From Chiloscyllium plagiosum (taxonomy: Eukaryota): DNA of 64,000 bases. A program made the position numbers and the translations under genes. Where the stretch lies: NCBI RefSeq assembly GCF_004010195.1, contig NC_057718.1:60646795-60710794 (forward strand), in the 5' to 3' direction. Position 1 is the first letter of the stretch. Each line of letters begins with the position of its first letter. This document shows, one piece after another, positions 8,416 to 40,211 of the stretch. A model generated the notes under the pieces. That model saw nothing but the letters and a program-made list of their open reading frames with translations, was not told where the DNA came from and made no database searches.

Positions 8416-8617
8416 TTTCCTTACACTGCAACAGGGAATAAACCAGGAATTAATGAAAACATGTAAAAAGGGTAGTACTTTAATCATGAGTGACTTTACT
8501 CTTCATGTAGATCACAAAAATCTGATTGACAGATGTACAATGAGGAAATATTCACAGAATATATATGGAACATTCTCCTCAAACGATATTTTGTGGATCT
8601 AAGCAGGGGTAAGTCGA

Positions 8618-8710
8618 ATCTCCTGTTCCCTGGATGCTGCCTGACCTGCTGTGCTGTTCCAGCAATAAAGTTTCAACTTTGATCTCCAGCATCTGCAGAC
8701 CTTTCTCCTT
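8618..8710 (+). mobile_element. 5'-truncated copy of the hammerhead-bearing short element
   Basis: gtcgaatctcctg...ggatgctgcctgacctgctgtgc...ctccagcatctgcag. Confidence 0.8.
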
Positions 8711-10739: not shown

Positions 10740-12550
10740 TTAATGGATTCATTATGGTGACCTACATCAAGATACAGTGAAAAGTGCTGTTTTGCTTGCA
10801 ATACGGGCAGATCATACCATACAAAATGCATCAAGAAATCAGAACAGGGTGTAAAGTACAGTGTTACAACCATACAGAAGGTGCAGAGAGAGAGAGAGAG
10901 ATATCAAAATTAACATTTGAGAGGACCGTTCAAAAGTCTAATAGCAGTAGGGAAGAAGCTGTTCTTGAATCTATTTGGACATGCATTCATAAATTTATAT
11001 CTTCTGTCTGATGTAAGAGGGTGGAAGAATATGACCAGGATGGGAGGTATCTTTGATCATGTTGATTGCTTTCCCGAGGCAGTGGAAAGTACAGCTGGAG
11101 TCAATGGATGGAAGACTGGATTGTGTGATGGACTAGGCTGTGTTCTCGACTCTCTGTCGTTTCTTGATGCCTTGGGAAGAGTAGTTACCATACCATGCTG
11201 TGAGGCATCCAGATAGGATGCTTTCCATAAAAATTGGGAAGAGTCATTGTGGACATGTTGAATTCCATTAGCCTCTTGAGCGAGTAGAAATGTTGTTGTG
11301 GTTTGTTGATTGTCATGTTAACGTGGGAGGTCCAGGATTATCATCACTTCCTGGAACTTGATGGTCTTCACCATTTCCACTTCAACACTATTGATTGGGA
11401 GGGGGGGGGTGTGGAGGTGTGTCATGGAGAGGTACAGCATGGAAACAGACCCTTTGGTCCGACTTATCCATGCCGACCAGATATCCCAACCCAATCTAGA
11501 CCCACATGCCAGCACCCAGCCCATATCCCTCCAAGCCCTTCCTATTCATATACCCATCTAAATGCCTCTTAAATGTTGCAATTGTACCAGCCTCCACCAC
11601 TTCCTCTGGTAGCTCATTCCATACACATACTACCCTCTGTGTGAAAAAGTTGCCCCTTAGGTCTCTTTTATATCTTTCCCCTCTCACCCTAAAGCTATGC
11701 CCTCTAGTTCTGGACTCCCTGACCCCAGGGAAAAGACTTTGCCTACTTACCCTATCCATGCCCCTCATAATTTTGTAAACCTCTATAAGGTCACCCCTCA
11801 GCTTCCGACGCTCCAGGGAAAACAAACTCAGCCTGTTCAGCCTCTCCCTAAATCTCAAATTCTCCATCCTTGTAAATCTTTTCTGGATCCCTTTAAGTTT
11901 CACAACATCTTTCCTATAGGAAGGAGACCAGAATTGCACACAATATTCCAACAGTGGCCTAACCAATGTCCTGTACAGCACAACAAGACCTCCCAACTCC
12001 TGTACTCAATACTCTGACCAATAAAGGAAAGCATACCAACCACCTTCTTCGCTATCGTATCTACCTGCGACTCCACTTTCAAGAAGCTATGAACCTGCAC
12101 TCCAAGGTCTCTTTGTTCAGCAACACTCCCTAGGACCTTACCATTAAGTGTGTAAGTCCTGCTAAGATTTGCTTTCCCAAAATGTAGCACCTTGCATTTA
12201 TCTGAATTAAACTCCACCTGCCACTTCTCAGTCCATTGGCCCATCTGGTCAAAGTCCCATTGTAATCCCAGGTAACCTTCTTCTCTGTCCACCACACTTC
12301 CAATTTTGGTGTCATCTGCAAACTTACTAACTGTACCTCTTCTGCTCGCATCCAAATCATTTATATAAATGACAAAAAGTAGAGAACCCAGCACCGATCC
12401 TTGTGGCTCTCCACTGGTCATAGGCCTCCAGTCTGAAAAACAACCCTCCACCACCACGTGTGATCTCAACTCCACTTCCTGAAGTCAATGACCAGCTTCT
12501 TTGTTCGCTAACATTAATGGAGAGATTGTTACCTTTACACCATGCTGTTA
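10740..12550 (-). mobile_element. Rex1/Babar-like LINE 3' part, split by a CR1
   Basis: LVIDFRKWS (12470-12510) continues as PINSVEVEMVKTIKF (11345-11400). Confidence 0.7.
11421..12457 (-). mobile_element. Young 5'-truncated CR1 LINE (RT C-terminal half and 3' tail)
   Basis: PQGSVLG, KFADDTK, QRDLGV, RPLLEYCVQFWSP, FFTQRVV. Confidence 0.95.
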
Positions 12551-12982
12551 AGCATATGGTTTATATATATTTTAGCATCTTTTTTTTGAAGTTTGAATTT
12601 TAGAAGAATTGCATATGGGTGTAGTCCTTCTTTGATGAAGGGGTTTAAACATTAACCAGATCTTTCTGGAACCATGATTTGAAACTTACATAGTCCTCCT
12701 GGAGTTTTCATAGACTTTTATTTATACTAGGAGTGCTTCCAACTGGAGAGAAAACGCATCAAGCTAATTGCTTAGCAGAATTGGGGATGAGCTTTTCATT
12801 TGAATTTAGTTCAAAAGCTTTTGGATAGTTCAAAGGAGACTTGACTGAAGTCAGAAGCAAATATAGGAAAAGGAGAATGTTTCAACCAGCAAAGAAAACA
12901 CATTACTTTCTTGAAAAGTGTAATTTGGGAAACCTACAGACCATGAGGGTTTGGTTGGAACTCGACAGTGTATGAAAAGATT

Positions 12983-13086
12983 GAGAAGGTCTAAGCTGCC
13001 ACTTTTGTGAGTAGCTAAGGGAATAGGTTATGAAAGCCCAGAGAAGGTCTAAGCTGCCACTTTTGTGAGTAGCTAAGGGAATAGGT
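12983..13086. repeat. Perfect 46-bp direct repeat with 58-bp period
   Basis: gagaaggtctaagctgccacttttgtgagtagctaagggaataggt at 12983-13028 and 13041-13086. Confidence 0.95.
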
Positions 13087-13193
13087 CTTACAGCTGACAG
13101 GATTGGAAATGAGAAGAGGCAGTTAAGTCAGACCTACACATTCGATAGAGAAGGAATTTGTTTGGAATTTTGAAGGGATGGTATTGGGGAATA

Positions 13194-13430
13194 AAACGAG
13201 GTAAAAACAATAACTGCAGATGCTGGAAGCCAGACTCTGGATCAGTGGTGCTGGAAGAGCACAGCAGTTCAGGCAGCATCCGAGGAGCTTCGAAATCGAC
13301 GTTTTGGGCAAAAGCCCTTCATCAGGAATAAAACTTTATTCCTGATGAAGGGCTTTTGCCCGAAACGTCGATTTCGAAGCTCCTCGGATGCTGCCTGAAC
13401 TGCTGTGCTCTTCCAGCACCACTGATCCAG
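13194..13430 (-). mobile_element. Young palindromic hammerhead-bearing retroelement with 13-bp TSD
   Basis: 96-bp arms at 13237-13332 and 13335-13430 with one mismatch; TSD gtattggggaata at 13181-13193 and 13431-13443. Confidence 0.9.
13338..13373 (+). ncRNA. Minimal type-I hammerhead ribozyme motif with intact core
   Basis: CTGATGA (13342-13348), extra A, GGGC-TTTT-GCCC stem II, GAAA (13362-13365), ACGT palindrome, GTC cleavage triplet (13367-13369). Confidence 0.75.
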
Positions 13431-13977
13431 GTATTGGGGAATAGATGAGTTTTTGTTCTGAAATCTTTCAAACTGTATTGTACATAAATAGGTTGGTTTA
13501 TTTTGTTTTGTTTCTATTTCTTTTATGTAATGAACTTGTGTCTTAACGTTAAAATGATATTTGCAGCCTCATGCTTATGTTCCAGTAAAAGACCACCACA
13601 TTAAGTTACAAGGACCAAAATATGCTCTATCAGGCTGGGATCTGACTTGTCCAGTAGCGATGTTAGTTGGAATCATAGCAATACTCTCTACAGAATACAC
13701 AGAGCCAAGTCATCAAGGCCTCTTCTGCAGCCTCTCCCAAACTCTCAAGAAATTTGAAGAAGAAATTGACATTGGAATTCAGACAGTAATTTGTAAGGAC
13801 AATAGTCAAGGGATTAAATTTTTATTCTGAGTCAGTAACACAGAGTAAACCCAATGTGGGTGAAAGTGCCCTGAATGGTCAGATTTGTATTCTGGGGAGT
13901 GGTTGCTAAATGGAGTCAATCCCTGCCAGAAAGAATTTTGTTTATTAAAAAGGCATTTTAAAAAAAGCATCCCTTGT

Positions 13978-14267
13978 GGGCGGCACGGTGGCACAGTGGT
14001 TAGCACTGCTGCCTCACAGCGCCGGAGACCCGGGTTCAATTCCCACCTCAGGTGACTGACTGTGTGGAGTTTGCACGTTCGCCCCGTGTCTCCGGTTGCT
14101 CCGGTTTCCTCCCACAGTCCAAAGATGTGCAGGTCAGGTGAATTGGCCATGCTAAATTGCCCATAGTGTTAGGTTAGGGGTATGGGTGGGTTGCGCTTCA
14201 GCGGGTCGGTGTGGACTTGTTGGGCCGAAGGGCCTGTTTCTGTAATGTAATCTAATCTAATCTAATC
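13978..14267 (+). mobile_element. HE1-like tRNA-derived SINE
   Basis: A box TGGCACAGTGG, B box GGTTCAATTCC, core tgtgtggagtttgcac, CR1-like tail and (TCTAA)n. Confidence 0.9.
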
Positions 14268-14902: not shown

Positions 14903-15000
14903 CAGAAACAAAAACAGGAAATGCTGGGAAAACTCAGCAGGTCTGGCAGCATCTATGGAGAGAAAACAGAATTAGTGTTTCAGGTCCAATCGCCCTTCCA
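14903..15000 (-). mobile_element. Short element related to the hammerhead families (ccagacctgctgagttttcccagcatt tail)
   Basis: Shares sequence with 31195-31305, 32660-32770 and 46610-46820. Confidence 0.65.
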
Positions 15001-15181: not shown

Positions 15182-15525
15182 GAGGCAACATGGTGGCTCA
15201 ATGATTAGCACTGCTGCCCCATAGCACTAGGGATCCAGGTTCATTTCCAAGCTTGGGCGACTGTCTGTGTGGAGTTTGCATATACTCCCTGTGAGTTTCC
15301 TCCGGGCCATCTGGCTTCTTCTCACAGGCCAAAGGTGTACAGGTTTAGTGGATTGGACTGCTGAGTTGCCCATTGTGTCCAGGGATATGTAGGCTATTAG
15401 GATTGGCCATGGGGAATGCAGGGATAGGGTAAGGATCATGTGCATGGATGGGATACTCTTCAGTGGTTTAGTGTAGATTTGATTGGCTGAATAAATTGTT
15501 TCAACTCTGTAGGGGTTTTATAATA
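15182..15525 (+). mobile_element. Older HE1-like SINE
   Basis: Degenerate A and B boxes and the same core as the 13978 copy. Confidence 0.85.
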
Positions 15526-15639: not shown

Positions 15640-17700
15640 AGGACAGATGATATTTCAAAGTTTCAGTATGTGGGAGTTCCTAACTATTAGTTTTATGCAA
15701 ACATGTTCGTTGTAAATGTTGGAGTTCAAATAGTTATGTCTCAGAGTCCACGAGCTGCAGGCCGAACCACAGACAGTATGATGCATCAGGGAGGGCAAAG
15801 TTATCCTGATTCTTTGTACCAATTGGCAATCATACCTCTTGGAACTGGATTGCTCAAGTTTGGTCAGTGTTCAGGGACATGAGAATATGACTGTATATGA
15901 GACAACTGAGAAAATCCAGAGAACATGGTAGTCTTTACAATTATCCAACATGTTTGAAGTTATTTTGCCTTGTCTGGATGAGAGTGAGAGCTGCAGTGGG
16001 GTTGAGCAAACTGACATGACACCATGGTACAGGAAGCCATTCAAGACTAAGTACTAAGAGGGAATGCAGTGCTAGTAGCGGACAGTATAGGATGGATTGA
16101 CACTTTTCTCTGCAGCAAAGAGCATGAGTCCACATAGTTTGTTGTTCGCCCAGTTTGAGGGGTCAAGGCCTTTGCCCAAAATGTCGATTTTCCTGCTCCT
16201 TGGATGCTGCCTGACCTGCTGTGCTTTTCCAGCACCATTCTAAGGTAGACTCTGATCTCCAGCATCTCAAGTCCTCACTTTTGCCCGGTCAGGACATCTG
16301 CTCAAGGCTAGAGAAGAACTTGCAGTGTGGGTGGGAGATTCCAGTGATTGTTGGCTGTGTGGATACTAACAACAAAGACATGACAAGGAAGGAGGTTCTA
16401 CTTATTAGGTTGAGGATCAAGATACCAAATTAAGAAACAAAACCTCAATGATCATAGTCTCTACAGCTTTATGCATGCCATGTGCAAATTGCTGTTGGAT
16501 AAAATGAATTAGCGAGCTGAAGGCATGGCTTAAAAATAACATGGCTGAGTCCTGATAGACTTTACCATAGGGTCTTTTAAAAATTGGCTAGTGAGTTAGT
16601 TAAAGCATTCACTTTAATTATCCAAAACTCCCTTGAATTGGAGGTAGTCTCAATGGATTGGAATGCGACAAGTATAACTCCTTTCTCCAAGAACAGAGAG
16701 AGGGAAAAAAGCAGAGAACTACAGCTTAACATCTGTTATAGGAGGAAAATGTTAAAAACTATTATTGCAGATAACTGAAACAGAGCACTTGGATAAGTAC
16801 AAGATAATCGTGTAATGTGTTTTTGAAAAGGCAATCATGTTTTAGAGTTCTTATCTCTTAGAGTTCTTTAAAGAGGTAATTCCTGCTATAGTTAAAGGGG
16901 AACTAGTGAATGTGCTGGACTTAGATTTCTAGAAGGCATTTGAAAAGGTGCCACATCATAGGTTATTATGGAAAATAAAACTCATAGTGCAGCAAATAGC
17001 AGAATGTTGCCAGGAATGGAGGGTTTGAGATATAAAAATAGTCTGGGTAGGCGGGGACCTTTTTCCACAGGAGCATAGGAGGTTGAGGGGTGACCTTAGA
17101 GAAGTTTATAGAATTATGAGGGGTACAAATAACATGAATAGCAAAGGTGTTTTCCCGAGGGTGGGGGAGTTCAAAACTAGGGAGCATGTTTTTAAGATAA
17201 GAGGAGAAAGGTTTAAAAAGCATCTGAAGGTCAACTTTTTTACACAGAGAGTGGCTCATGTGTAGAATGACCTGCCAGATGAGTGATGGATGCAGGTACA
17301 ATCATAACGTTTAAAAGATATGATAAGTACATGAATAGGAAAGCTTTGGTGGGATATGGGCCTAACACAGACAAGTGGGACTAGTTTAGTTTGGGAACAT
17401 GTTCAACAGGGACTAGTTGGACTGAACAGTCTGTTTCTATGATGGACGACTCTATGATTCTATATTAAATACAGAGGGACCTTGACAAAGTAGATGTGAA
17501 GAAGATGTTCCCTTTTGAGGGAGAATCTACGATTAGGGATCACTGTTTAAAAATCAAGTGTTTCTCATTTAAAATTGAGATAAGGCAGTTTTTTTCTCTC
17601 TCTCTCAGATGGCCATGAGTCTTTGGAAGTATCTTCTTGAGAAGATGGTGGAAGCAGAGTCCTTGAATAGCTTTAAGACAGAAAGGATAGATTTTCAAGT
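15640..17700 (+). mobile_element. Degenerate CR1 with ORF1 (zinc finger/leucine zipper and esterase) and ORF2 pieces; nested CR1 tail at about 17003-17462
   Basis: DICSRLEKNL...PVIVGCVDTN (esterase), LDF*KAFEKVPH, RGDLREVYRIMRG. Confidence 0.8.
16165..16284 (+). mobile_element. 5'-truncated hammerhead-family short element inserted in CR1 ORF1
   Basis: ggcctttgcccaaaatgtcgattttcctgctcc...gtcctcacttttgcc. Confidence 0.85.
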
Positions 17701-19003: not shown

Positions 19004-22000
19004 AATAGAACATAAGAACATAAGGGCTGGGAGCAGGAGTAGGCCCTCCGGCCCTTCGAGCCTGCTCCACCACTCAATAAAATCATGGCTGATCTTTTTG
19101 TGGACTCAGCTCCACTTACTCGCATTTTCACCATATCTCTTAATTCCTTTATTTTTCAAAAAAGTATCTACCTTAGCTTTAAAAGCGATTACTGAAATAG
19201 TGTCAATTACTTCCCTGGGCAAGGAGTTCCATAGATTAACAACCCTCTGGGTGAAGAAGTTCCTTCTCAGTTCAGTTCTAAACCTACTTCCTCTAATCTT
19301 GAGGCCATGCCCTCTTGTCCTTGTCTCACCCACCAGTGGAAACATCCTACCTATTTCAATTTTATCGATTCCCTTCATAATTTGATATGTTTCAATAAAA
19401 TCCCCCCCTCATTCTTCTGAATTCCAATGAATATAATCCCAGTCTACTCAGTCTTTCCTCATAAGCCAACTCTGGAATCAATCTAGTGAACCTCCTCTAC
19501 ACCTCCTCCAGTGCCAATGCATCTTTTCTCAAGTAAGGAAACCAAAACTGCATGCAGTATTCCAGGTGTGGCCTCACTAGCATCTTGTACAACTGTAACA
19601 TTACCTCTCTGCTTTTAAACTCAACCCTTTAGCAACGAAGGACAAAATTCCATTTGCCTTCCAAGTTACTTGTTGTACCTGCAGACCAACCTTCTGTGAT
19701 TCATGCACAAGGACACCCAGGTCCCTCTGCAAATCAGCATGCTGCAACATTTTCCCATTCAAGAAATAATCTCCTTTGCTGTTACTCCTACCAAAATGCA
19801 TGACTTCACATTTACTAACACTGTATTCATTAACCAGACCTTTACCCACTCACTCAATGTTCCGCTGCAAAGTTTCACAGTCCTCTGCAGACTTTGCTCT
19901 GCCACTCATCTTAGTGTCATCAGAAAATTTTGACACTGTACACGTGGCCCCAACTCCAAATCATCTAAATAAATTGTGAATTATTACAGTCCTAACACTG
20001 ATCCCTGAGGCACACCATTAGTCACTGATTGCCAGCCAGAGTAGCACTCATTTGTCCCCGGTCTCCTCTTCCTGTCAGTCAACCAATCCTCTATCCATGC
20101 TAATGCTCTACCCCTAACACCATGCAGCCTTATCTTATGCAGCAACCTCATGTGCGGCACATTGTCAAAGGCCTTTTGGAAATCTAGGTACACTACATCC
20201 ACTGGGTCCCCGTTGTCCACCTTGTTTGAAATGTCTTCATAGAATTCCAAAAGATTTGTGAAGCATGACCTGCCCTTCATGAACCCATGCTGTGTTTGTA
20301 CAATGGGACAATTTCTTTCAGATTGCCCTATTTCTTCCTTGATAATAAACTCAAGCATTTTCCCCACTACAGAGATTAAGTGCACTGGTCTATAATTCCC
20401 CATCTTTTGTCTACTTCCCTTTTTAAACAGTGGTGCCACATTTACTGTTTTCCAATCTGCTGGGACTGCCCCAGAGTCCAGCAAATTTTGAAAAATTATC
20501 ACCCACCTGCTATTTCTCCAGCTATCTCTTTTAGTCCCCAGGGATTCATTCCAATTTGAGCCAAGAGTCTTATCTATCCTTAGCTCCATTATCTTACCCA
20601 ACACTAACTCTTCTATAATAATAATTGTTTCCAGTTCCTCATCTACCTTCGTCTCTTTGTCACTTACTGGCATGTTATTAGTATCCTCCACTGTGAAGAC
20701 TGATGCAGAGTACCTGCTCAATGCTTCAGCCATTTCATCATAACTAAATGCCCCTTCTCATCCTCTAAAGGACCAACATTTACTTTAGCCACTCTTTTTC
20801 ATTTTATATATTTGTAGAAACTTTTGCTATTTGTCTTTATATTCTGTGCTACATTTTTTCTCGTACTCTATCTTACTTTTCTTTATAGCTTTTTTTTGTG
20901 GCTTTCTATTGACATTTAAACTTTTCCCATTGTTATAGGTTCCTGCTGTTTTTGGCCACTTTGAATGGTTCTCTTTCACTTTGGTAGCCTGCCTTATTTC
21001 CTTACACACCCATGGCAGATTACCCCATTTCCTACAGTCCTTCCTTCTCACTGGAATATATTTTTGCTGAACTCTTTGAAACATTTCTTTGAAGGTACTC
21101 CACTGCTTGTCATAAAGTCTCTCTTTCCAGTCTACATTAGCCAGGTCCTCCCTCATTCTATCATAATCCTCCTTATTCAAGCACAGGACCCTGGTATTGG
21201 ATTTTATCTTCGCACTATCCAGCTGGATTTTAAATTCAACCATATTATGATCACTCCTTCCAAGAGGATCCCTGACTATGATGTCATTAATTATTCCTGT
21301 CTCATTACACAAGATCAGATCTCAGATAGCTTGCTCCCTCATCGGTTCCATTACATACTGTTAGAAAGCTATCATGGATACACTCAACGGTCTCCTCCTC
21401 AAGGCTACCCTGACCGAACTGATTCGACCAATCTACATGCAGATTAAAATCCCCCATGATAATAGCCATACCATTTTTGCAGGCATTAGTTATTTCTTTG
21501 GTTATTGCCCACTTCAATGTAATGTGATTATTTGGTGGCCTATAGACTATACCTATCAGTGAATCTTTATTCTTTGAATTCCTAATTTCCACCCAAATCG
21601 ATTCGACCTCATGCTCCATGGAACCGATGTCAGCTCTCAGCACTGCTCTGAAGTCGTCCTTGAATATCAGAGCTACACCACCTCCCTTACCTTGCTGTCT
21701 GTCCTTCCAAATAGTCTGGTACACCTGGATACTTAATTCTCAGTCATGACCATTCTGCAACCATGTATCCATGATGGTTACCAAATCATATTCATTCACA
21801 ATGATTTATGCCGTTAACTCATCAACTTTGTTACGAATGCTACAAGTATTCAGGTAAAGTGCCTTTCTTTTAATTTTCTTACCATCATGATTCACAACAC
21901 CTCTAACATCTCCTGAGTTATCCTTCATTTTTGGTTCTTTCATAGTCTGCCCTGAACTTAAACCATCCTGCATACATACTAACCTGCTGCTTACCTTTTC

Positions 22001-24035: not shown

Positions 24036-25176
24036 GAGATTGTGTTGGAATTTTATAAAATGCTTGTTAAGTCACAGCTGGAGTACTGTAAGCCGTGCTG
24101 GGTATCACATTACAGAGAGGATGCAATTGCACTCTAGAGGGTGAAGAGGAGATTTCACAAGATGTTGAGTGGGCTGGAGGGTCTGAGCTATAAGTAAAGT
24201 TTGGATAGGCTGGGGTTGTTTTCCTTGGAGCAATGAAGGTTAGTCATAGCCCTGACAGAGCTGTATAAAATTATAAAAGGCAAAGATTTTAATGCATTAG
24301 CAGAGAGGACCATAACCAGGACACATAGATTTCAGATAAGTGATAGAAAACTAAGAGGAGAATTATGGGAGATTTTTTTCACACAGAGGGTGTAAAGAGT
24401 CTAGAATTCATTGCCTGAAAGTGTGTTTGAGGCAGAAATATTTAAGCAGAGTTTAGATATTCACTTGCATTACCATCGCCTCCAGGGTTAGGGACAAAGA
24501 GCTAGAAAATGTTACAGTATTGTCATATTTTTCTGTCCAGCGTTGATATGATGGGTTAATTAACCACCTTCTGCACTGCAAATGCCAGTGAGTCTATGAC
24601 CTTGGCCTAGAAGGTTTAAAGTCTGCTCAGGATTATAGTCAAAGTAAATCACCTTTGTTAAAGCTTAGCACCTTCTTGACAATGCACATCCCCAAAGCTG
24701 TTCATCACCATCACCCACACCCTCAGAATGTTAATCTCCCTCTGATAATATTCACTTTCCTCTCCTGATGGTGTCCAACCTCCCTTTGAACACTGGTCAC
24801 CCACTTAGCTCCCTCCCCACCCACAATATTCATCTCCCTCCCATCAATATTCATCCTCCCCAGGCAATGTTCATCATCTCCCTCTTGGCAGGATCAACAT
24901 TTGGGGTGTTGTTTGGAGGGAGGGAAAATGAGCACTGCTTGGGTTGTGAATGGTGAGAATTGTCAGCCCAGAAGGTAAAACCTGTGTAGAATAAAAATAA
25001 TTGGAATGAGTATACTGGTCATGTTGCAGCTTCATGTTGAGTTATGCAAGATCAATCTGAGTCATTCACCCAGTTTACTGTTTTTACCCTCTGGGAGTGG
25101 CCTTGGCAGGAGATAATGAGCAATGTTCAGGGTGAGGAAGTGTGAATTGTTCAGGGTTAAAGGAGGGTGAGTACAG

Positions 25177-25402
25177 ACTAGAGTGGTGCTGAAAAAGCAC
25201 CGCAGGTCAGGCAGCATCCGAGGAGCAGAAAAATTGACTTTTCGGGCAAAAGCCGTACATCAGGAATGAGGCCATTATGAAGGGCTTTTGCCCAAAACAT
25301 CGATTTTCCTGCTCCTCGGATGCTGCCTGACTTGCTATGCTCTTCCAGCACCACCCTAATCTAGACTCTGATCTTCAGCATCTGCAGTCCTCGCTTTCGC
25401 CT
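25177..25402 (+). mobile_element. Palindromic hammerhead-family element, both cores decayed
   Basis: Inverted arms; 16-bp TSD aggagggtga(g/t)tacag at 25161-25176 and 25403-25418. Confidence 0.9.
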
Positions 25403-25406
25403 AGGA

Positions 25407-25476
25407 GGGTGATTACAGTCAGGGATAAGTGTGGGTGATTACAGTCAGGGATAAGTGTGGGTGATTACAGTCAGGG
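25407..25476. repeat. 26-bp tandem repeat, about 2.7 units
   Basis: gggtgattacagtcagggataagtgt repeated. Confidence 0.9.
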
Positions 25477-26321
25477 CATAAGGGAGCAAAGGTCAATGAG
25501 TACTGTTGGAGATGTGAGGGAATATGCAATGTCAGGGATGAGCAAATTGGGGGGTTGAGCAGTGTCAAGAGTGAACAAATGAACATTACTGAGGGTAGGC
25601 ATTGTGGGCAGTGTGGGGGACCGTGCATTGTCGAGGAAGAGGGAATAGAGGAAGTGAGTCTTGTCTAGGATTACAAATCTATTTAAAAACTCTGCAGTTC
25701 AATTACCAAAGACAGAAATTAAATGAATGTGTCTTCAGTCGATAAAGAAAAAGAGAATGTAGCTCCATTATTGCCACATTTCAGCACTTGGCTACTTGGA
25801 CTACGCTCATCTCTTGATTCTAACAGGAAATTACTGGAAGTGTGAGCTGATAATAGCACAGTGAGGACAACACAGTACCTTATCTCCTTAACTGAAGAAA
25901 TTTAAGAATTATGAATGAAACAGAGAATTCACAGAGAAGGTTTACTTGGAGACAACAAATTTGAGTTGAATCAGATGCATAACAACACAAAAAGTAAGGG
26001 CAAGAAACATTGAATAGGAGAGAACCACAAAAGTTTTGGAAAATAGATAAAAACTTGCAACATTCTTAGTTGTTTAATAGTTTTAACTTGTAAGAATTGA
26101 CTGCATGCAGGCATGAAACCCAACAGCTTAAATAGTTCCCTTTCTAGGCTGGTGTAAGTTGGCATGGCAGGTACAATTATCCAATTATCGCTTTGTGAGA
26201 AAGGTATTTACATGGTGAATATGAATCCTAACTTACTGCAGACAGTTAAATGGAGAATATTCACATGTAGATCCAATAAGTTCTTATAAGTAACAGGGAG
26301 GTTGAAGGCAAGCTGCTGTTC

Positions 26322-26561
26322 GATCAGATTAAATACCCTACAATATGGAAACAGGCCCTTCGGCCCATCAAGTCCACACTGACCTTCTGAAGACCAACCT
26401 CTAATGCACCTGGTCTGCACATTGTCACATTGCAGGAGGAAACCAGACCATCCAAAGGAAATCCAAAGAGACACAAGGAGAACTTGCAAACACCTCACAG
26501 ACAATCACCCAAGGCAGGAATTGAACTTGGGTCCCTAGCAATGCGAGTCACCATGCCACCC
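26322..26561 (-). mobile_element. HE1-like SINE, internally deleted
   Basis: Reverse complement of the SINE head and ggcccttcggccc tail. Confidence 0.85.
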
Positions 26562-28908
26562 AAAAAGGATGAAACAAAAGCATAGTAGCATTGACTCGCA
26601 GGTCATGGAAATCAGCAGTTTTTGTCTTCACCTGGAATTAATCAGTTGGGCCATTAATTATTTTGTGAGTCAGGAACTTTTGGTTATTTGCCCCAAAAAA
26701 ATTAGTCCTAAATTTTACATCAACAGTATTCGGAGATTATTACGACTAAACCAAGCTCTTAAAGTCAAATGCTAAAGATCTACTTTTGAGGTAAATTGAA
26801 CTTGGTTCAGAAGATTCGATCAGTTAAAAATGTTCACTACAGCTTCCTTCCTGGTACACATGACACACGCACTGTTAATAGAAGCTTGTCAGCATTGCTG
26901 ATGTTCTCTGATGCTTTGTATATTCAGAGCCTTTGAATGAAGGTGAGCTATCACAAGTGAAAAGCTATTTTCTCTGGGAGCATTAACATTTGAAAAGCAT
27001 AAGCATTCTTTTCAATCTATAAATCATCCAGCATAAATCACTTCCTGATTACATTACAACTACCTTGTCATCAGAATGCAGTATCTTGTCTTCATGATCA
27101 TAGCTACAGAATTTGCAGCAATAACTGCTCTTCCCATATTTACACCAGCATTGCCAGATCTATCCTTAGTCCCTCCTTTCCCTTATTTATTTACTGTCTC
27201 TCAGCAGCATTATCCACGAGCATGGAGCAACCTTCCATGTGGCAAACTATTGACACCCAGCTCTAATTCTCTGCCATTTTTCAGGATTAATCAAATGCAT
27301 CTGTACTGTCAGACCATCCCTCACATATTCATTCTTGCACAAGTCACAATATTCTTCAGCAAAGCTTTTGAAAAGACTAAACCTGTTTCTTTTGATCCCC
27401 AACAAGAATTCTCTCCCCTACCAACAAATCAATTTGCCTTTCATGTCACAGTTTCAACTTAAATCAGACTGTTCATAGCTCAGTGCATTTTTCTGGCTAT
27501 AAGCTAAACTTCTGATCCTATATGCTCTGTATGAAAAAGACTACCCACTTCTAACTTTGTAAGGTCACTTGCTTCTGCTTCACCATTGCAATCCTCATCA
27601 ATATTTCTGTCACTTAAAGATCCTATTACCCCAATGCTCTCCTGTCCAGCCCAGTTACAGGACAAAGATCCTGATGCATGCTTTACATGATTGGGAACTA
27701 TCCATTCCAGAGTAAGGGATCTTTAGAAAGGACAAAGAAGTTGATGTAGACAGGTGCTTTGCCATTTAAACACAGTAGGAAGATTTCTAATAAAGATGAT
27801 GAGATAGTAGATGGATAGAGTTAGGGCACAGCAGACATTGGAAGATACTGGTTGTTCTTCACAACTCCTGACAGTAATGGTGATGTTTATATGTACAGAA
27901 AACAGAGAAGAATGTTAATGCAAAGCTATGTTCATCATGAGAGAATTTCACTTTCACATAGATTGGGAAACATGTAACCAGTACAACAGTAAAGGGAATG
28001 ACTTTTTAGATGCTATTGAGATCCACGTTGTAGCACTATTCAGACTTTTAGGTCATCGGTTAGCAGAGCTTGCTGGTTGGTCCTTAATCCAACCATCCCC
28101 ATTCAGGTTTGATCCAATGTCTAGATCCAGGCCTTTGGGCGTCATACTCTCAAGTTAATAGATTCTGCAGAAAGATGCAATTGGAATAGGAGAGGGATGT
28201 TTCAATGATAATAACATTACAACTCAGCAATTACTACAATAAGTGAATGTTAAGTCTTTATTTTGTTTTCTATTTGTGAAACAGGTCCTCACCAAAAAAA
28301 ACAACACAACGTTTAAGCAGTTCAGAAGAGGACATGGCTTTGAACAGGTCCAAAAATCACACACAGCAATAGGTTCATTAACTCCATAGATGGAATGTTC
28401 TTTTGAGAGAACCATTTAACCCTTAACATTCCTCACATTATACTTGGAAGTAATGCAGGCAATCTCAGCTCTGGGGAATTCACATCTCCATCTGTATCTT
28501 ACAGTGTACACCAGGTACTCATGTACTGTGCTACTGTCTCTGAATTCTTCTCTCCTGCTGGAGGAGAATAGGCAAAATAAATACAGACGTGTCCATTTGT
28601 GGATCGAAAGGGCGGTGACTACATAAGGCTCCTCATCCACTTCAAACAACAGACCACAGAGCTGGCAGGAGATGAAGGGGGATATGTGCTTACTGATGGG
28701 GATATGTAGGGATATGTGAGGGCATATATGGGGATATAGGGAGATTGGATATCAACAGCCAGCTAGTGTGAAAACCTTCAGTTATTCCCAGTTGCATATG
28801 CAGCAGCAATCTTGGATGGTTCATGGTTTCTGATAGGACTAAATCTTCTCATTTTACTTTTCAGCCTCCAGATCCCATTCCCCAAACCCAGACAAAGAGG
28901 TTTATTGT

Positions 28909-29126
28909 TGAGAGTGTGGTGCTGAAAAAGCACAGCAGGTCAGGCAGCATCTGAGGAGCAGGAGAATTGACATTTCGGGCAAAAGCCCTTCAGCGATCGT
29001 TCCTGATTAAGTGCTTTTGCCTGAAACATCAATTCTCCTGCTCCTTGGATGCTGCCTGACCTGCTGTGCTTTTCCATAATCACATTCTCGACTCTAATCT
29101 CCAGCATCTGCAGGCCTCACTTTGGC
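28909..29126 (+). mobile_element. Palindromic hammerhead-family element, decayed cores
   Basis: Inverted arms; 16-bp TSD with two mismatches at 28893-28908 and 29127-29142. Confidence 0.9.
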
Positions 29127-29963
29127 CAAAGAAGCTTATTGTCCCAGGCATCGTCAGCTTTTTCATCATGCCCCCATCTTCCAAAGGGGTGAGGGAGATA
29201 CCATTAGGCACTGACTGTGAGGGAATGGAACATTGGCACCAGGGACTCATGTCAGGACCCTTCTGAAGTGCCCTGCAACACCAAGGTCCAATCACGATGC
29301 AGTGGCAGTAAATGAAAACAACATTGAAGTCCTTCTTGGCTATTGTCCTACTAAACAACCCTCAGTACTATATTACTTTAGTCCATTTTAATCTGTTAAT
29401 ATATCTGACTGTTCATGTTTTCCTTGTAGAATGCTTTGAGGGGCAATAATGACCCTGGATACTTGTGTGAGCAGCAGTGTAAAGAGCATTGAATCTCTCA
29501 TTCATTGCTATCCTCTGAGAGAAACATAACTTCCGAAAAGTGGGAAGTTAAAGATACATGCTTCATGTTATGACAGTCAGTTAGCATTTTTCTACCACTC
29601 CATGAGTGTTGATACCCCTTTCAAATACAGGCTTGAAGCATGGTCTTCATTTAAGTTTGCAGATTGCCATTCTGATCCCCTGGCCAGGAAGCTGAACAAG
29701 AGATTGTTGGTGCAAAGGGAGCCAATTCAATTACAATCATTGACAATCACAGTATCTTAATGTTTGACATTTACAAAGCAAGCCTTTCCTTGAGGGAAGA
29801 AACAGCTCTGTACCACAATTAGTTAATGCCTCTGATTGTCCACATATGTTAATGCAAAGAAATTTGCCTCAAATCAAGCTGCTGTCAGGCTATCACGAGC
29901 CTGTCTGCTTCATTTCAGTATTGCATTGGTTTCCTCAGCATTTCCGTTGATCTCCCCTCTTCC

Positions 29964-31165: not shown

Positions 31166-31194
31166 TGCTGCCTCCCAAGCTGTATATTTACAAA

Positions 31195-31305
31195 ATAAAT
31201 GACAGAAAGAGCTGGAGAAACTCAGCAGGTTTGGCAGCATCTGTAGAGAGAGAGAAAAACAGAGTTAATATTTCAAGTTTGATATGGCTATTCTTCAGAA
31301 CTGAT
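31195..31305 (-). mobile_element. Short element with CTGAAGA-type hammerhead-like core
   Basis: Minus strand reads agttCTGAAGAatagccatatcaaacttGAAAtattaact. Confidence 0.6.
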
Positions 31306-32417
31306 CTTATGAACTGTGTGCTTGCTAATGTAATGTTTGTACATAAACTAGCTCCTAGTTTCTGTGGTGCAAGAAATAATACATGTCGTCATGTTTGGAT
31401 TTTGGAACACATATGGTTCCCATTTTTGAATAACAAAGTTGTGTCAGTGAATGTAATTCAAGCAAGTTATGTTGTTAATGAATACTCATGCCATGCTGAT
31501 AAATGTTAAAGAGCTGCCTGGACCATGAGGATTGGTAAAGTCAACCAGTCTGAAAGTTTCTGAGAATTTAAAAGCAAAATTATAATCTGCTGTTGGACAA
31601 GTGAAGTTTTACCTTACTGCCTCATAACATTCCCCTGCCTGCCTGTCAGAACTTTCTCGGAGACCCTGGAAAAGTTTGCTGCATGTGTAAAGATGCCCTT
31701 CAAACAGTTTATACTATGTTTGGAAGGATAGCAACTGTATGATTGGCTGCTAGGTAACAAAACTGCTTGAGGGTATGACAGTTTGGCCAGAAGCTATCAT
31801 ACTTCCACAGTAAAAAGAAACCTCAAACCTGAAAAAAGCCAATTAGTTTACCTGTATCAGTTGCAGTGAGCTGTGATTCTTAATCAACAAGTCAGACACT
31901 TCATAAGTGTGAACTAGTTATTCTGTGCCTCATGAAAACAAACAAAAGTAACTGAAGAAAGAAGAATGAGGAGCAGCAATTCAAAAAGATCATGAAGCCT
32001 GGTTTCTCTGCAGTGTCCCAAGAAGAAAGTTCGGGGATCCTGTTTGGGGCTCCTCTTTCCTAAGAGTGCCTGCTGGGATCACCCTGTTTCCCTGGCATGA
32101 AGTAGAGGTGTCTCATCTTCTTCTTGCCTTACCACTAATTCTAAGAGAGTGCTGAACCTGAGTCTCCATGACGATTGCCAACCTCTTCATAGACACAGCC
32201 AGATGCATTCAGTTCAGAGCCTCTCATTGTGGACTGTCTCATTCGTCTTACTGACTGCCTGATATTCCTGTGAGTATCTATGCATTTTGGCAAAATCATT
32301 AAATGGTGAGACCATGTAAACAACTTCTGCCAGGGACTAACCTGTGATTTTGGCCATTCTCTGAATGCTGGAGACCTGGGGACTTTCTTTCTCGACAAGC
32401 ACAGAGACATGTTGGTG

Positions 32418-32476
32418 TTTTTCCAGCACTACATTTTTCAACTCTGGTCTCCACCATCTGCAGTCCTCACTTTCTC
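32418..32476 (+). mobile_element. Tail-only copy of the hammerhead family with 22-bp TSD
   Basis: caagcacagagacatgttggtg at 32396-32417 and 32477-32498. Confidence 0.9.
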
Positions 32477-32889
32477 CAAGCACAGAGACATGTTGGTGAA
32501 GCGCTCACCAGATTGTGAGCTACACAAAGAGCATCCACTGAGGTGGAAGTTTTGAACTGATGAGAGGTGCAGGTGAATACTAATGGCTTCTACTTCAGAG
32601 ATGAATCAGAGGGTCTTCAGCTACTTTGGGATGGAGGTTCGCTGGGTGCTGCTAAGTCAGTTCTGAAAAACACTCGTACTGATCTCAACCTGTACTCTGC
32701 TTTTCTCTCTCTCCACAGATACTGCCAGGCACATTGAGTTTCTCCAGCATTCTCTGTGTTTTGTTTTTAATCAAAGGTAGTCTGATTTCTTTAGTTGGAG
32801 GTCTTGGGGAGATTTTGTCTCTTGACCCCAGTGGTCATAGAAGTGTCAGAGTGAATACTGAGATGATGGATGAACATAGTAGTCCATTT

Positions 32890-33298: not shown

Positions 33299-33779
33299 GG
33301 TCAGTGAATCCTGTGGACGGAGACCACCTTCCCAGTCTTTCTTTCCATCCATACCATTCATGTAGTTTTGTCTCTGCGTGTATGTGTGTGGTGAGAGAGT
33401 TTCATCATGTGGAAGTTTTAACTCTTAGTAAAATGTCAATGGTTAATAATTGCTCATTTGTAGCAAGAATCTATTTATTTGTAATAAATAACAGTCATTG
33501 TTACATAGAGAAACCTGATCTCGGTCTTCTGTCAACTTGGCTCTGAAAGACAAGGGAAATTTGGGAATTGTGAGGTCTATTCTGAAATCTTTTACTTTTT
33601 GATGATGCCAAAAATAATGAGACATAGTTTCCAGTGTGTTACGAAGAAGGCACAATAAATTCCAAGTGATCAATGAGCTCACATATACACTGCATGCTGG
33701 AACTATGCGCAGCACTGACTCTGCTTGGTCAAAATATGGCCTACCCTGAAATGTTTTGAGATCGGAGCTATAATCTGCT

Positions 33780-34120
33780 GATTAAATGGTCAGTAATTAG
33801 GGGTCACAATTTCAAGATAGTCAGCGAGAGAGCTAAGAGTGAGATGAGGAGAAACCACAATACTGAGAGAGTTATTAGGATTTGGAATGCACTGCCTGGG
33901 AGAGGGATGGGGACAGATTCCATGGGAGGTTTCAAAAGAGAGTTGGATATATATATATGAAAGTGATTAATTTAGGGGGGCTATGGAGATAGGGCTGAAG
34001 AATGTGATTAGGTAGGTAACTCTTTCAAGAGCCAGTACTGACACGATGACTCAAATGGCCTCTTTCTCCACTGTTAAAATAATATGATTGATTACTTACG
34101 ATGAATGAATGAATGAATCA
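33780..34120 (+). mobile_element. CR1 3' fragment with (ATGA)n end
   Basis: RGHNFKI and WNALP motifs. Confidence 0.75.
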
Positions 34121-35329: not shown

Positions 35330-36870
35330 TGCACAGTTCTGGTCTCCATTCTACAAAACTGCCAAATAAATACTGATGGAAGTGCAAATAAGATTTTTAA
35401 GGATAGCACCAGAGCTAAGAGATTACAATGATCAGGAAAGATTTGAAAGGTTAGAGCATTTTATCTATAGATGAGAGAAGACTTGGAGGTGACCTAATTT
35501 GCTCTTTAAAATAGTGACTGAGCTGGTCAAGTTAGGTGAAGAGGGAATGCTGTCCCCAGGAAATAGCAAGCTGTGATCTGTGTTTAAGTTTTGGAATGAA
35601 GGATAGTAGATTGTGGAATTCTCCAAGGGTCAGAAACTGGGATCACTTTTTGGTTTGATTCATTTGAATGAGTTGACAATTTGAATATGGAATAAAATTT
35701 CAAACTTTTCTGATGATAACAAATTGGTTGAATGGCAAATAGCAAAAATAATACAAATTGACTGCAAAAGGACATCAATTGGCTTTCAGAACAAGCAGCC
35801 AAGGGGCAAATTGGATTTAATGAAGATGGATGTGAGGTGTTGCATTTAGGCAGGAGTGAGTGAAGAAAACTGCTGGTTCAGAAGAGAATGCAGGACAAAG
35901 GGATTCGTGGTTCATGTGAATAGATTTTCACAGGCAGCGGAATGATTTGAGAGAATAATTAGTCTGATAAATAGAAGCATTCGGACAAAAGCAGAGCAGT
36001 TATATTGTATCTTCGCAATTCTCTAGCTAGGCCAAGGCTATTATTCTAGGAGAAAATGAGGACTACAGATGCTGGAGATCAGAGTCGAGAGTGTGGTGCT
36101 TAAAAAGCACAGAAGGTCAAGCAGCATCTGAGGAGCAGGAAAATCGATGTTTTGGGCATAAGCCCTTCAACAAGAGTTCCTGATGAAGGCTTTTGCCCGA
36201 AATATTGATTCTCCTGCTCTCCGGATGCTGCCTGACCTGATGAGCTTTTCCAGCACCATACTCTTGACTAAGATTATTATTCTACCTCCCATGTATCTAG
36301 GAATCAGTGGATAATTATGGAAATCCTTCTATTATCTCCATCCCACTTCCTTTAGAGACCTGGGATGCAATAATCAGGACCAAGTCACTTTACCACTTCA
36401 GAAAGGAGGGTCTTTGAGAGGGTGATGAGGAGATTTGACTGGTTTCTGAGGTGATGGATTTTGGCTACCATGTTAGTTTGGAGAAGCTATGATTCCTCAG
36501 AGCCAAGAAGATTGTGATGGAGATCTGATAGAGATGCATCAGGTTATGACAAGCTTAAGTAATGTCTTTCTATTGCCTGATGCTACAAGGCAGCACAGAT
36601 CGAAGGTTTTGGGCAAGAGGTAGATGGAAGATGTGAGGAAGATTAGTTTTTCTGCAATGAGTTGTAATGATCTGGAACTTACTGGCTCTGAGCATGGTAG
36701 AAGTAGAATTGATCAATGATTCAAAGATAAATTGCATAGACATGAGGAAAGTTAACACATAAGATTAGGAGCATTTAGCAGAGGGATAGGATTGATTGGA
36801 TTGCTTTACAGAGATTTAACATGGTCTCAAAAGCTGCATTCCTTTTATGTGTATTGTATTAACTCCATGG
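35330..36870 (+). mobile_element. Degenerate CR1 ORF2 fragments
   Basis: GILQGS, CEVLHL, GDLI and WNL motifs in broken frames. Confidence 0.65.
36049..36269 (-). mobile_element. Palindromic hammerhead-family element
   Basis: CTGATGA at 36180-36186 and GAAA; 15-bp TSD with two mismatches at 36034-36048 and 36270-36284. Confidence 0.9.
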
Positions 36871-37429
36871 TTTAAGTTATACTTTGCTCAAAGGAAGTTG
36901 AACATGTTTGTTAGAGGTTCATCACCTGAACTACAGAACATCACTGCAGGGGTTTGTCAGGTACTGAGCTAAACACATTTAGTTGCTTCATCAATGATCT
37001 TTTCTCCAACATAAGATGACAGATAGGGATGCTGACTGATGATTGCACAGAAAGACCTGGATAACATTCAGTATAGGGCTCATTGTGGCAAATATCATTA
37101 ATGATGGACAACTGTAAAACAATAACCACAACAAGATGAAATATAGCCATCTCTCCTTGATGTTCAATGGCATTGCCATTGCCAGATCCTTCACAATCAT
37201 ACAAGACATGGAGTTGTGGAGTACTGGCTTAATACCTTTAGACTCAGAACAGCTACTGAACATGAGCCCCCAAAAGGAACAATGTCATCGTGATGTCAGA
37301 TCACGTGAAACTGGGTCCTCCATCAGTAGGTCCATAATGATGTCCTACCTTGCCAGCTTCTATATAATTCAATATTCAATAATTCTCACTCATTAATGCT
37401 CACTCACATTAATGTCGAAATGACCTTAC

Positions 37430-38180: not shown

Positions 38181-38798
38181 ATCCTCTCTTTGTTCCCAAT
38201 TCACAAAATAAATAGCTTATTGTTTTTGGTAATGAAAAACAGACAAAGGAATTTCATAGTGCTGCATTTAACTGTTCATACTAATGCTGCACAGCAGGTT
38301 TTCACCCCATAAATGTTTAAAATAGAAGATAGAATTGTGAAGCAATATCTACTTAATTGGCTGCTTATAAGATTTGCTATTATAAATATTGCAGACTGGC
38401 CTTCCAAATAAACATTATTGTGTCCCACTTCAGTTATTAAGATTTTGATTCACATTTTAAGGCAGTCTCATTCCTGTGAGATTCATATCTCTGCCAAACC
38501 TTGATGCCACAGCACATAAATTCAACTGATGACATCAGATATAATTATAACACTTTCTTTTAAACTAATGAAGATCTTACGCAATGGCCACCTTGGGGCT
38601 GATGTGCTGTGGCAGAAAGAAGGCCATCTCAACAGTCAGATGATGGACTAAAGCATTCTTCACATTAAGTAAGGGGACTATATACAACACTCAGATGAAG
38701 AAAAAAGATTCAGAAACATGCTCACAAACTCTGATTGTTAACTATTGTGAAATTGTTTGCAAAGAATAAAGCTTCAATACAATTACAGCTGTTTCAAT

Positions 38799-38966
38799 TG
38801 AAGAAAGTGAGGACTATAGATGCTGGAGCTCAGAGTCAAGAGTGTAGTGCTGGAAAAACACAGCAGGTCAGACCCTGATGAAGGGCTGGCTTATGCCTGA
38901 AACGCCGATTCTCCCGCTCCTTGGATGCTGCCTGACCTGCTGTGCTTTTCCAACACTACACTCTCA
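38799..38966 (-). mobile_element. Hammerhead-family element with short inverted arms
   Basis: CTGATGA at 38875-38881 and GAAACGCC; 14-bp TSD with two mismatches at 38785-38798 and 38967-38980. Confidence 0.9.
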
Positions 38967-40211
38967 ACAGTTGTTCCAATATTCTATTTTATATTTACCA
39001 CAGAAAAATCAATTGTTAATTGACTTCAATTGTTAACTGATTCTAGTCAAGTCAAACAGCATGGCTCATTCCAAATAAAGGTTACAAAACATAATCTGAC
39101 AACTTGAAATTTATGAAGGACAAGAAATGGCAGTAAGGAAAGTAGAGCTTTAGGGTGCTGAGGTTTGAAAATCATGACAACAGGATAAGTGTCTCATCAG
39201 CACGGGTAGAGACAGTAAAGAGCAGAAGGACCAATGTTGTGGAAATGATTTAGTGACAAATAGAATATGGAGATTAAAGAGAACAGAACTCCAAGATTTT
39301 GGAGTCTGATTCAGCCTGAAAGAGGTGTCTGTGGAGTCACTTAATTTCTAATGGCAAATTACATGTGAACAAGTTAACATATTTTGGGATCTGGGTTGGA
39401 AATGAGGGAAACTGCAATGCTGTATACCGGAAAGTCAAACAAAAAGTGCTGTGAATTTAAGATTTGACCATGAGGAATTCACAATCATATCAGTATAATC
39501 ACACCTGAACTATGAAATGACTTTTTAAGTTTGGAATTAACGCTTTGAAATAATTCCAATAATTTTCTGAATGACATTTAAAATTTAATGCTAGTGAGGG
39601 GGCTATCTGTTTCCTTGGCTCATTACTAATATTTGAGGTTTCATTGACAATAAGACACAATGAAGCTGGCCAACACCTGGTGAATGAGCATAAAATCAAC
39701 AATACAACTCAGTGCTTTCAAAATTTAACCCTACCCAAAAGCAACTGCTTCTCAGGTACCTTTCCACAGAATTGTTCCATCTTACTGCAATTGTTCCACT
39801 TCAGGGTAGAGGATTTGAAGTCCAAAATGTTTCTTGCTAACAATTGCATCTGCTTAGCTCCTTTACCAGGGCACTTCTCAGGAGTGTTGCCAGGCAAAAT
39901 TTAATGCTGATCCACATAAGTAGATACGAAGTCAGGTGACCTTAGAGCTTATTGATAATTGTTTATAGGGAATCTAGATCTTTCAGTAATAGCATCTGGA
40001 TCTTTCAGGATTCAGTCTGAATCTCTGAAGAGTGGAGTCTGAATCTTTGAAGAGTGGAGTGTAGGCCTTTGAAGGATTGAGTTGGGATTTTTGAGGAGAG
40101 AAGTATAGATCAAAGGAACATCCTGATTCCACAGATGTTTTGAATGATCTGGAGATTGAATTTTCAGATAAGAACTCCAATGATGTTGCAGCGGCTGCCA
40201 ATCATGTGTAT

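What the first reader, a model, noticed from the sequence alone, without database searches (positions are those of the whole stretch)
13194..13430. Young palindromic retroelement carrying an intact minimal hammerhead ribozyme
Seen: a 237-bp insertion with a 13-bp TSD, 96-bp inverted arms with one mismatch and a 2-nt loop. The + strand reads attc-CTGATGA-A-GGGCttttGCCC-GAAA-CGTC-gatt. Established: CUGANGA/GAAA/NUH is the hammerhead core. Penelope-like elements and metazoan retrozymes carry minimal type-I hammerheads whose stem III is only a short palindrome (here ACGU) and which cleave as dimers. An extra A after the core A9 is tolerated in a natural viroid hammerhead. Inference: this is a non-coding, ribozyme-bearing retroelement mobilised in trans, which could be overlooked as an ordinary SINE or MITE. 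Stem I is weak in this copy (one U-U mismatch).
Basis: partly seen in the sequence, partly recalled or inferred. Interest (0 to 1): 0.75.

Follow-up and report, generated by a model that had tools for sequence, protein, structure and literature searches.

The report
Head-to-head Penelope stub with hammerhead, shark
This 237-base mirror-image insertion is real and carries a letter-perfect small hammerhead motif, but it is likely a short landing product of a very common Penelope-like jumping gene in a shark-like genome, with the motif predicted to be locked shut inside the hairpin, so it is an ordinary example of a known class.

Summary
Observation confirmed: 13/14-bp target-site duplication, 96-bp arms with one mismatch, intact minimal type-I hammerhead on the + strand. 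Five of nine family loci in the window share this layout (long arm with tail, short arm, TSD-like repeat), each with a different centre. That is the published anatomy of Penelope-like element (PLE) insertions, and minimal hammerheads are published PLE features. The family is very abundant (33,601-38,948 contigs laid per DNA run). Longer copies continue upstream, so the unit is the end of a longer element. Both arms keep the cut site, so the template was likely uncut RNA; the 96-bp hairpin is predicted to hide the motif. I could not link the unit to a PLE reading frame, so PLE membership rests on anatomy. A self-propagating palindromic retroelement is not supported. The scan has noted this on other DNA many times (132 notes, at least 17 genomes).

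The parts
13180..13193 (+). left target-site duplication (14 bp; 13 bp if G13430 belongs to the element)
   Evidence: 100% identical to 13430-13443
13194..13236 (-). 43-nt one-sided tail: 3' continuation of the unit present on the long arm only
   Evidence: aligns with the tails of the long arms at 25180, 28906, 36050, 38800 loci
13237..13332 (-). long (left) arm, 96 nt, unit read on the - strand
13294..13329 (-). second minimal hammerhead, G12 changed to A at 13305 (CpG-type change); predicted inactive
13333..13334 (.). centre joint AC; C13334 likely belongs to the unit, leaving about one untemplated base (inferred)
   Evidence: loose ends attach before 13334
13335..13430 (+). short (right) arm, 96 nt, unit without tail
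13338..13373 (+). intact minimal type-I hammerhead motif: stem I AUUC/GAUU with U-U, core CUGAUGA, extra A, 4-bp stem II, GAAA, palindrome ACGU, predicted cut after C13369
   Evidence: features match PMC4209133
13430..13443 (+). right target-site duplication
25161..25418 (.). older sister locus, short arm left, long arm right, 15/16 TSD-like repeat
28893..29142 (.). older sister locus, short arm left, long arm right, 14/16 TSD-like repeat
36034..36284 (.). older sister locus, long arm left, short arm right, 13/15 TSD-like repeat
38785..38980 (.). older sister locus, long arm cut back to +53, short arm with hammerhead start, 12/14 TSD-like repeat

Best explanation
The insertion is two back-to-back copies of one 139-base repeat end, one with and one without a 43-base tail, and it is likely a dead, very short insertion of an endonuclease-bearing Penelope-like element, likely built during landing when the element's protein cut both target strands 13-14 bases apart and each cut end primed reverse transcription on uncut element RNA. 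Shown: two arms with outward-facing 3' ends, one-sided tail, TSD, intact motif on one arm, same layout at four sister loci with different centres, high abundance, longer copies upstream. Inferred: the parent is a PLE; the two outer ends are two fixed start sites of reverse transcription (as measured for the anole element PAc); both cDNAs stopped near the front edge of the hammerhead and were joined with about one untemplated base; the hammerhead is inherited cargo from the parent's terminal repeat. Predicted: in any read-through RNA the arms pair over 96 bp and the hammerhead cannot fold; even the lone arm prefers a fold that buries the core; cleavage would need a dimer through ACGU and probably the element's protein.
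For: Layout: (5 of 9 loci two-armed; 5 of those 5 have one long arm, one short arm and a 14-16-nt flanking repeat at 12/14 to 14/14 identity; 3 of the 4 one-arm loci gave no such repeat). Short arms end in alignment columns 114-121 and long arms in 154-161 (read against the TSDs), i.e. two fixed ends about 35-43 nt apart; in the DNA runs 149 contigs leave the unit at 13236 in run X13. PLE insertions have an adjacent inverted truncated copy and a 30-40-bp one-sided tail (PMC8557442, PMC3846280; passages). PAc cuts and extends both strands, starts reverse transcription at two sites that bound the tail, uses uncut RNA, and its hammerhead cuts only with protein (PMC11167929; parts 1-2 of 4). Motif features (extra base after A9, G10.1-C11.1, palindromic 15.2-16.2, short stem I) are those of PLE minimal hammerheads (PMC4209133; parts 1-2 of 4). 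Uncut template: 11 of 14 arms start 5' of the cut site. Against simple fold-back: at 25180 and 38800 the short arm holds 5' sequence that the long arm lacks and the long arm holds the tail. Upstream continuation: 71-91 contigs in 3 of 4 DNA runs go on before 13334 with a shared consensus that ends in a pyrimidine tract and CAG|G, 17 nt before C3; in D. virilis Penelope the intron ends at the 5' side of helix I (PMC4209133). Folding: -202.8 kcal/mol hairpin, stem II pairing probability about 7e-15; lone arm -11.4 for the core-burying fold against -5.7 for the stem I + stem II skeleton.
Against: No RT or GIY-YIG frame was tied to this unit in any of my calls (34, 39, 49, 52, 61; no relatives in the viral, metagenome or GTDB collections), so the parent is not shown. 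The tail is 43 nt, slightly above the published 30-40. Stem II is 4 bp, shorter than the 7-8 bp given for Schistosoma PLE motifs. Central deletions after insertion could also explain why centres differ and why a long arm lacks 5' sequence. Arkhipova et al. (PMC3846280, passage) explain inverted junctions by self-priming instead. The clustering of 5' ends at -7 to +9 (11 of 14 arms) is not explained by random truncation and fits a short dedicated RNA as well. The two arms of this copy differ only by one CpG change, so this copy says nothing on one versus two templates. Excess conservation of the core is only suggestive (1 of 30 versus 15 of 100 positions with a non-CpG variant, one-sided Fisher p=0.07; mapping bias not excluded).
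Confidence: 0.72

Rival explanations
1. The 139-nt unit is a dedicated non-autonomous, SINE-like derivative of a PLE: it is transcribed as a short RNA that begins at the hammerhead's front edge and is inserted in trans, sometimes twice head to head.
For: 11 of 14 arms start at -7 to +9 from C3; 174-206 contigs per DNA run leave the unit at 13338 into unlike flanks (agreement 0.33-0.34); stubs far outnumber long copies in the rows shown; vertebrate retrozymes are proposed to be non-autonomous PLE derivatives (10.64898/2026.07.22.740005; parts 1 and 3 of 5).
Against: No exact Pol III B box in the element (0 of the 10 window matches fall in it), no poly(A) or repeat tail; copies with a shared upstream continuation exist; family RNA reads are in both orientations with no pile-up of starts (a poly(A) single-cell library that may not show them).
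Confidence: 0.15
2. One cDNA was made from the tail end, folded back on itself and copied itself (self-priming), giving the mirror arm; the short end was then joined to the target.
For: Arms of this copy are identical but for one CpG change; self-priming is the published proposal for PLE inverted junctions (PMC3846280, passage); the 28906 locus fits it.
Against: At 25180 and 38800 each arm holds sequence the other lacks; short arms end at a fixed place, which fold-back does not predict.
Confidence: 0.08
3. One reading: the palindrome is itself a young mobile element whose active hammerhead processes its RNA.
For: Perfect TSD, 95/96 arm identity, intact core on one arm; two-arm form is common (5 of 9 loci).
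Against: Five different centres in five loci; hairpin predicted to hide both motifs; both arms keep sequence 5' of the cut site; minimal PLE hammerheads showed no monomer activity and low dimer activity (PMC4209133), and 8 of 9 Xenopus dimers did not cut (10.64898/2026.07.22.740005).
Confidence: 0.04

Closest known systems
Endonuclease-bearing Penelope-like element insertions with inverted truncated pseudo-LTR and one-sided tail (Adineta vaga Pen2a_Av, PMC3846280; general scheme, PMC8557442; passages read)
   Same: Head-to-head inverted terminal repeats, 3' ends outward, tail on one side only, TSD around the whole unit, hammerhead in the repeat.
   Different: No reading frame between the arms; whole insertion only 237 bp; tail 43 nt; TSD 13-14 bp against 8-10 bp in the rotifer examples.
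Minimal hammerheads (min-HHR) of metazoan PLEs (Cervera and de la Pena 2014, PMC4209133; parts 1-2 of 4 read)
   Same: Type I, no helix III beyond a palindrome, extra base between A9 and G10.1, G10.1-C11.1 pair, short helix I; the paper also notes pairs on opposite strands 100-700 bp apart and many solo copies.
   Different: Helix II is 4 bp; helix I has a family-wide U-U mismatch; the parts read do not mention sharks.
PAc (Poseidon of Anolis carolinensis; Frangieh et al. 2024, PMC11167929; parts 1-2 of 4 read)
   Same: Two fixed ends downstream of the hammerhead with the tail between them; uncut RNA as template; AT-containing target.
   Different: In PAc the frame starts inside the hammerhead; here the ATG in the core closes after 17 codons and no frame is kept across subfamilies. 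The clade of the shark element was not determined.
Non-LTR retrozymes (PMC7229834, passages; 10.64898/2026.07.22.740005, parts 1 and 3 of 5)
   Same: Non-coding, type-I hammerhead, related to PLE terminal repeats.
   Different: Retrozymes are head-to-tail tandem arrays giving circular RNA; this is head-to-head, and Tandem Repeats Finder lists no array of this unit in the window.
MITEs (recalled, no call)
   Same: Short, non-coding, inverted repeats, TSD.
   Different: The inverted repeats are not terminal on both sides (43-nt tail), centres vary, one-arm copies exist, TSDs vary in length and sequence.

Membership tests
EN+ Penelope-like element | Single frame with PLE-type reverse transcriptase and GIY-YIG endonuclease upstream of the terminal repeat | tested here: inconclusive
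   None in the window next to any copy (motif scan; one candidate at about 60237 gave no Pfam hit); protein searches with the unit's translation found no fusion; no whole genome held.
EN+ Penelope-like element | Adjacent inverted, 5'-truncated copy of the terminal repeat | tested here: met
   5 of 9 loci
EN+ Penelope-like element | 30-40-bp tail on one end only | tested here: met
   43 nt here; about 35-42 nt at the four sister loci
EN+ Penelope-like element | Target-site duplication around the whole unit | tested here: met
   14/14 here; 12/14 to 15/16 at four sister loci
EN+ Penelope-like element | Hammerhead motif inside the terminal repeat | tested here: met
EN+ Penelope-like element | Partial-tandem arrangement, internal promoter and intron in the pseudo-LTR | tested here: inconclusive
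   Only an acceptor-like pyrimidine tract + CAG|G in a 30-letter loose-end consensus of agreement about 0.5
Minimal type-I hammerhead (PLE min-HHR) | CUGANGA, GAAA and UH cores in order around a paired stem II | tested here: met
   + strand arm; not met on the - strand arm (G12A)
Minimal type-I hammerhead (PLE min-HHR) | Extra base after A9, G10.1-C11.1 pair, palindromic 15-16 positions | tested here: met
   A13349; G13350-C13361; ACGU 13365-13368
Minimal type-I hammerhead (PLE min-HHR) | Mg-dependent cleavage after H17, as a dimer | not testable with these tools
   RNA reads show no pile-up of ends and no fall in depth at the site, but most come from other, older copies and the library is not suited to see cut ends
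Minimal type-I hammerhead (PLE min-HHR) | Core conserved above flanks | tested here: inconclusive
   1/30 versus 15/100 variant positions, p=0.07; only 1 of the 14 arms in the window passes the descriptor
Non-LTR retrozyme | Head-to-tail tandem units each with a hammerhead | tested here: not met
   no tandem array of the unit in this window
Non-LTR retrozyme | Accumulating circular RNA | not testable with these tools
   only a poly(A) library was available
tRNA-derived SINE | Internal Pol III B box and A-rich or repeat 3' end | tested here: not met
   no exact B box in 13194-13430; no tRNA or 5S family by Rfam; 3' end is U-rich
MITE | Terminal inverted repeats at both ends and fixed-length TSD | tested here: not met
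   one-sided tail, variable centres, TSD-like repeats of 14-21 nt

The most novel reading that the evidence does not exclude
In shark PLEs the hammerhead is not used as scissors during transposition but marks where copying ends: the folded or protein-bound motif, just downstream of a 5'-UTR splice acceptor, stops both reverse transcriptases, and the two cDNAs primed from opposite target strands on separate RNAs are joined there. The very many short head-to-head stubs would then be a genomic record that answers two open questions at once: how PLE inverted ends arise and what PLE hammerheads do.
Probability: 0.15. Interest if true: 0.6.

Novelty: new member of a known kind. Interest (0 to 1): 0.2.

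Why it matters
As a single locus it is a dead insertion. Its value is as a clean, young example for two questions that the cited papers leave open: how Penelope-like elements make inverted ends with a one-sided tail, and whether their minimal hammerheads cut at all in vivo. With several such stubs per 64 kb, a shark genome offers enough junctions to test double priming against fold-back by counting alone. Read-through of such stubs would also give long perfect double-stranded RNA (predicted, not tested).

Tried and rejected
Rfam: only a tRNA-like match at 51329-51400 at gathering score; around the element 20 sub-threshold matches, mostly microRNA precursors that score the long hairpin, no hammerhead family. 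Collection scans: 0 matches in viral contigs and in the first metagenome scan; the 14 metagenome and 10 GTDB matches to a 21-mer do not extend beyond about 27 bases and are chance. Parent frame: no convincing GIY-YIG or PLE-RT motif in six frames of the window by short recalled patterns; the best candidate near 60237 had no Pfam match; a full six-frame Pfam scan of the window was not done. Searches with the unit's 46-codon open frame: 1 hit among 44 candidates, none at near length, none among cluster representatives. No RNA holder was listed for the locus. Run X22 laid 0 of 8,328,510 reads, no test. Empty site: no joint skipping the insertion among the 15 of 397 joints shown, so presence or absence in other individuals and in organism B is untested; one contig of run X4 spans the left junction 31 bases into the element with no difference. 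Bacterial promoter and terminator scan: nothing, and not relevant. Luense et al. on dimer cleavage of PLE hammerheads is not held; I saw it only as a citation in PMC6765202 (passages). A cap-derived G at arm starts, suggested by earlier notes, could not be judged from 14 arms. No paper describing this shark family appeared in the listings of searches; Repbase and Dfam could not be searched, and supplements (including those of the 2026 bioRxiv preprint, which sampled one cartilaginous fish) were not seen, so the family may already be catalogued.

Full report
Observation. The coordinates hold. Inverted arms of 96 nt lie at 13237-13332 and 13335-13430 with 2 nt between them, and a 14-nt direct repeat lies at 13180-13193 and 13430-13443; G13430 can be counted to either side, so the TSD is 13 or 14 bp. 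On the + strand the right arm reads as a type-I minimal hammerhead with C3 at 13342 and C17 at 13369. It is the only hit of a loose descriptor in the window, but that descriptor also hit 10 of 40 simulated windows; a tighter descriptor written after seeing the motif is expected 2e-4 times per window. Rfam does not recognise it. The stronger reason to accept the motif is that it is the front part of a repeat family: a relaxed pattern finds 9 sites in the window, all in family copies.

The single arm mismatch, at 13305, changes G12 of the - strand hammerhead to A. It is a CpG-type change; 435 of 575 family RNA reads in run X21 have the G. The U-U pair in stem I is a family trait, not a defect of this copy. 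The 43 bases at 13194-13236 continue the left arm: together they are one 139-nt unit on the - strand, and the right arm is the same unit without its last 43 bases.

The family. BLAST finds the unit at 9 loci in the window (weaker matches at 14922 left aside as a probable sister family). Five are two-armed, and all five have one long arm with the tail, one short arm, and a flanking direct repeat (14/14, 15/16, 14/16, 13/15, 12/14); of the four one-arm loci one has a 21/21 repeat and three have none. Short arms end in columns 114-121 and long arms in columns 154-161 of the alignment (one search read). The centres differ at every locus: arm starts relative to C3 are -7/-7, -4/+3, +4/-3, -2/-3 and +53/-1. 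Eleven of 14 arms start 5' of the cut site (+27); one starts near it (+32) and two far beyond. In four public DNA runs of two organisms 33,601-38,948 contigs lay on the stretch, almost all on the element, against depth of about 10-30 on the flanks; this shows great abundance but is not a copy number. In the same-206 contigs per run leave the unit at 13338 into unlike sequence, 149 contigs of run X13 leave at 13236, and 71-91 contigs in 3 of 4 runs continue before 13334 with a shared consensus that ends in a pyrimidine tract and CAG|G 17 nt before C3. So the unit is the end of a longer element. The unit's translation matches the first 35 residues of a predicted Chiloscyllium punctatum CEP57-like isoform at 83%, which places the same subfamily in a bamboo shark; the window's other repeats look like CR1-type LINE pieces (family name recalled).

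RNA. In one single-cell poly(A) run 1,307 of 12,955,460 reads lay on the unit, only 38 of them at 99% or more, in both orientations, with no pile-up of starts or ends and no fall in depth across the cut site; a second run of the same sample laid none. This fits read-through of many dispersed copies and is no test of cleavage.

Folding. The whole insertion folds into one hairpin of -202.8 kcal/mol in which the hammerhead's stem II has a pairing probability near 7e-15. The lone motif prefers a fold that pairs the core with the CGUCG stretch (-11.4) over the stem I + stem II skeleton (-5.7), and the ACGU self-duplex is worth only about -2 to -3 kcal/mol. No arm folds clearly better than shuffles (z -0.5 to -1.4).

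Comparison with what is known. Penelope-like insertions often carry an inverted 5'-truncated copy and a 30-40-bp tail at one end (PMC8557442, PMC3846280; passages). Their terminal repeats hold minimal hammerheads with the very features seen here, with no monomer activity and low dimer activity; pairs on opposite strands 100-700 bp apart were noted (PMC4209133; parts 1-2 of 4). The anole element PAc cuts and extends both target strands, starts reverse transcription at two sites that bound the tail, uses uncut RNA, and its hammerhead needs the protein (PMC11167929; parts 1-2 of 4). In D. virilis Penelope a 75-bp intron lies in the promoter region (PMC2377424; passages) and ends at the 5' side of helix I, which parallels the acceptor-like motif here. 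Retrozymes differ in being head-to-tail arrays. The defining RT + GIY-YIG frame was not found for this unit in my calls (34, 39, 49, 52, 61), so 'works like the end of a PLE' is well supported and 'is a PLE' rests on four anatomical features; earlier notes of this scan report the frame upstream of such hammerheads in the same genome, which I could not check.

Mechanism. Both outer ends are 3' ends of the unit and each abuts a TSD copy, the geometry expected if each target strand primed a cDNA. Two fixed ends about 40 nt apart match the two PAc start sites. At 25180 and 38800 each arm has sequence the other lacks, which a single cDNA folding back cannot give unless bases were later deleted at the centre. 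I therefore favour double priming on uncut RNA, with both cDNAs ending near the hammerhead's front edge. I read this idea in earlier notes of the scan before testing it on these five loci. Why copying ends there is unexplained: a capped RNA start, a stop at the folded motif, and a short dedicated RNA all remain possible.

Verdict. A real, young-looking, intact-motif example of a known kind. The scan has recorded the same thing in 132 notes from at least 17 genomes. I found no paper on this shark family in searches, but repeat libraries and supplements were not seen. Interest 0.2.

Noticed in passing
window 12971-13086: 58-bp tandem duplication about 100 bp left of the insertion. Contigs of runs X4 and X5 cross the place with one copy only and depth is near zero over 12987-13044: an allele difference, or a collapse or assembly effect.
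   Followed up: partly
window 25403-25482: A 26-bp unit repeated about three times starts inside the right TSD-like repeat of the sister locus at 25180.
   Followed up: no
window 32397-32498: A one-arm, heavily shortened family copy (starts +63 from C3, no hammerhead) between perfect 21-bp direct repeats.
   Followed up: partly
window 36045-36270: The two arms differ at two places that also vary among family copies (loop II UUAU versus UUUU; base after the cut site), a weak hint of two templates.
   Followed up: partly
window 8613-8700: The only copy that starts near the predicted cut site; it has GAAU after GUC, which would pair fully in stem I.
   Followed up: no
protein P0001: A predicted Chiloscyllium punctatum CEP57-like isoform begins with 35 residues read from this repeat, starting at an ATG that falls on the hammerhead's ACGU palindrome; exonisation or a prediction artefact.
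   Followed up: partly
window 13978-14265, 15189-15378, 26319-26399, 51425-51740: Another dispersed repeat with B-box matches at 14034, 26518 and 51481, likely a tRNA-derived shark SINE (name recalled: HE1-like); Rfam gives a tRNA-like match at 51329-51400 next to one copy.
   Followed up: no
window 14914-14985, 31192-31278, 32694-32767: A related but distinct short repeat family sharing the middle of the unit; not analysed.
   Followed up: no
window 10772-12484, 17001-17462, 19984-21739, 56174-59218: Broken LINE-type reverse-transcriptase and endonuclease pieces, CR1-like by recall.
   Followed up: no
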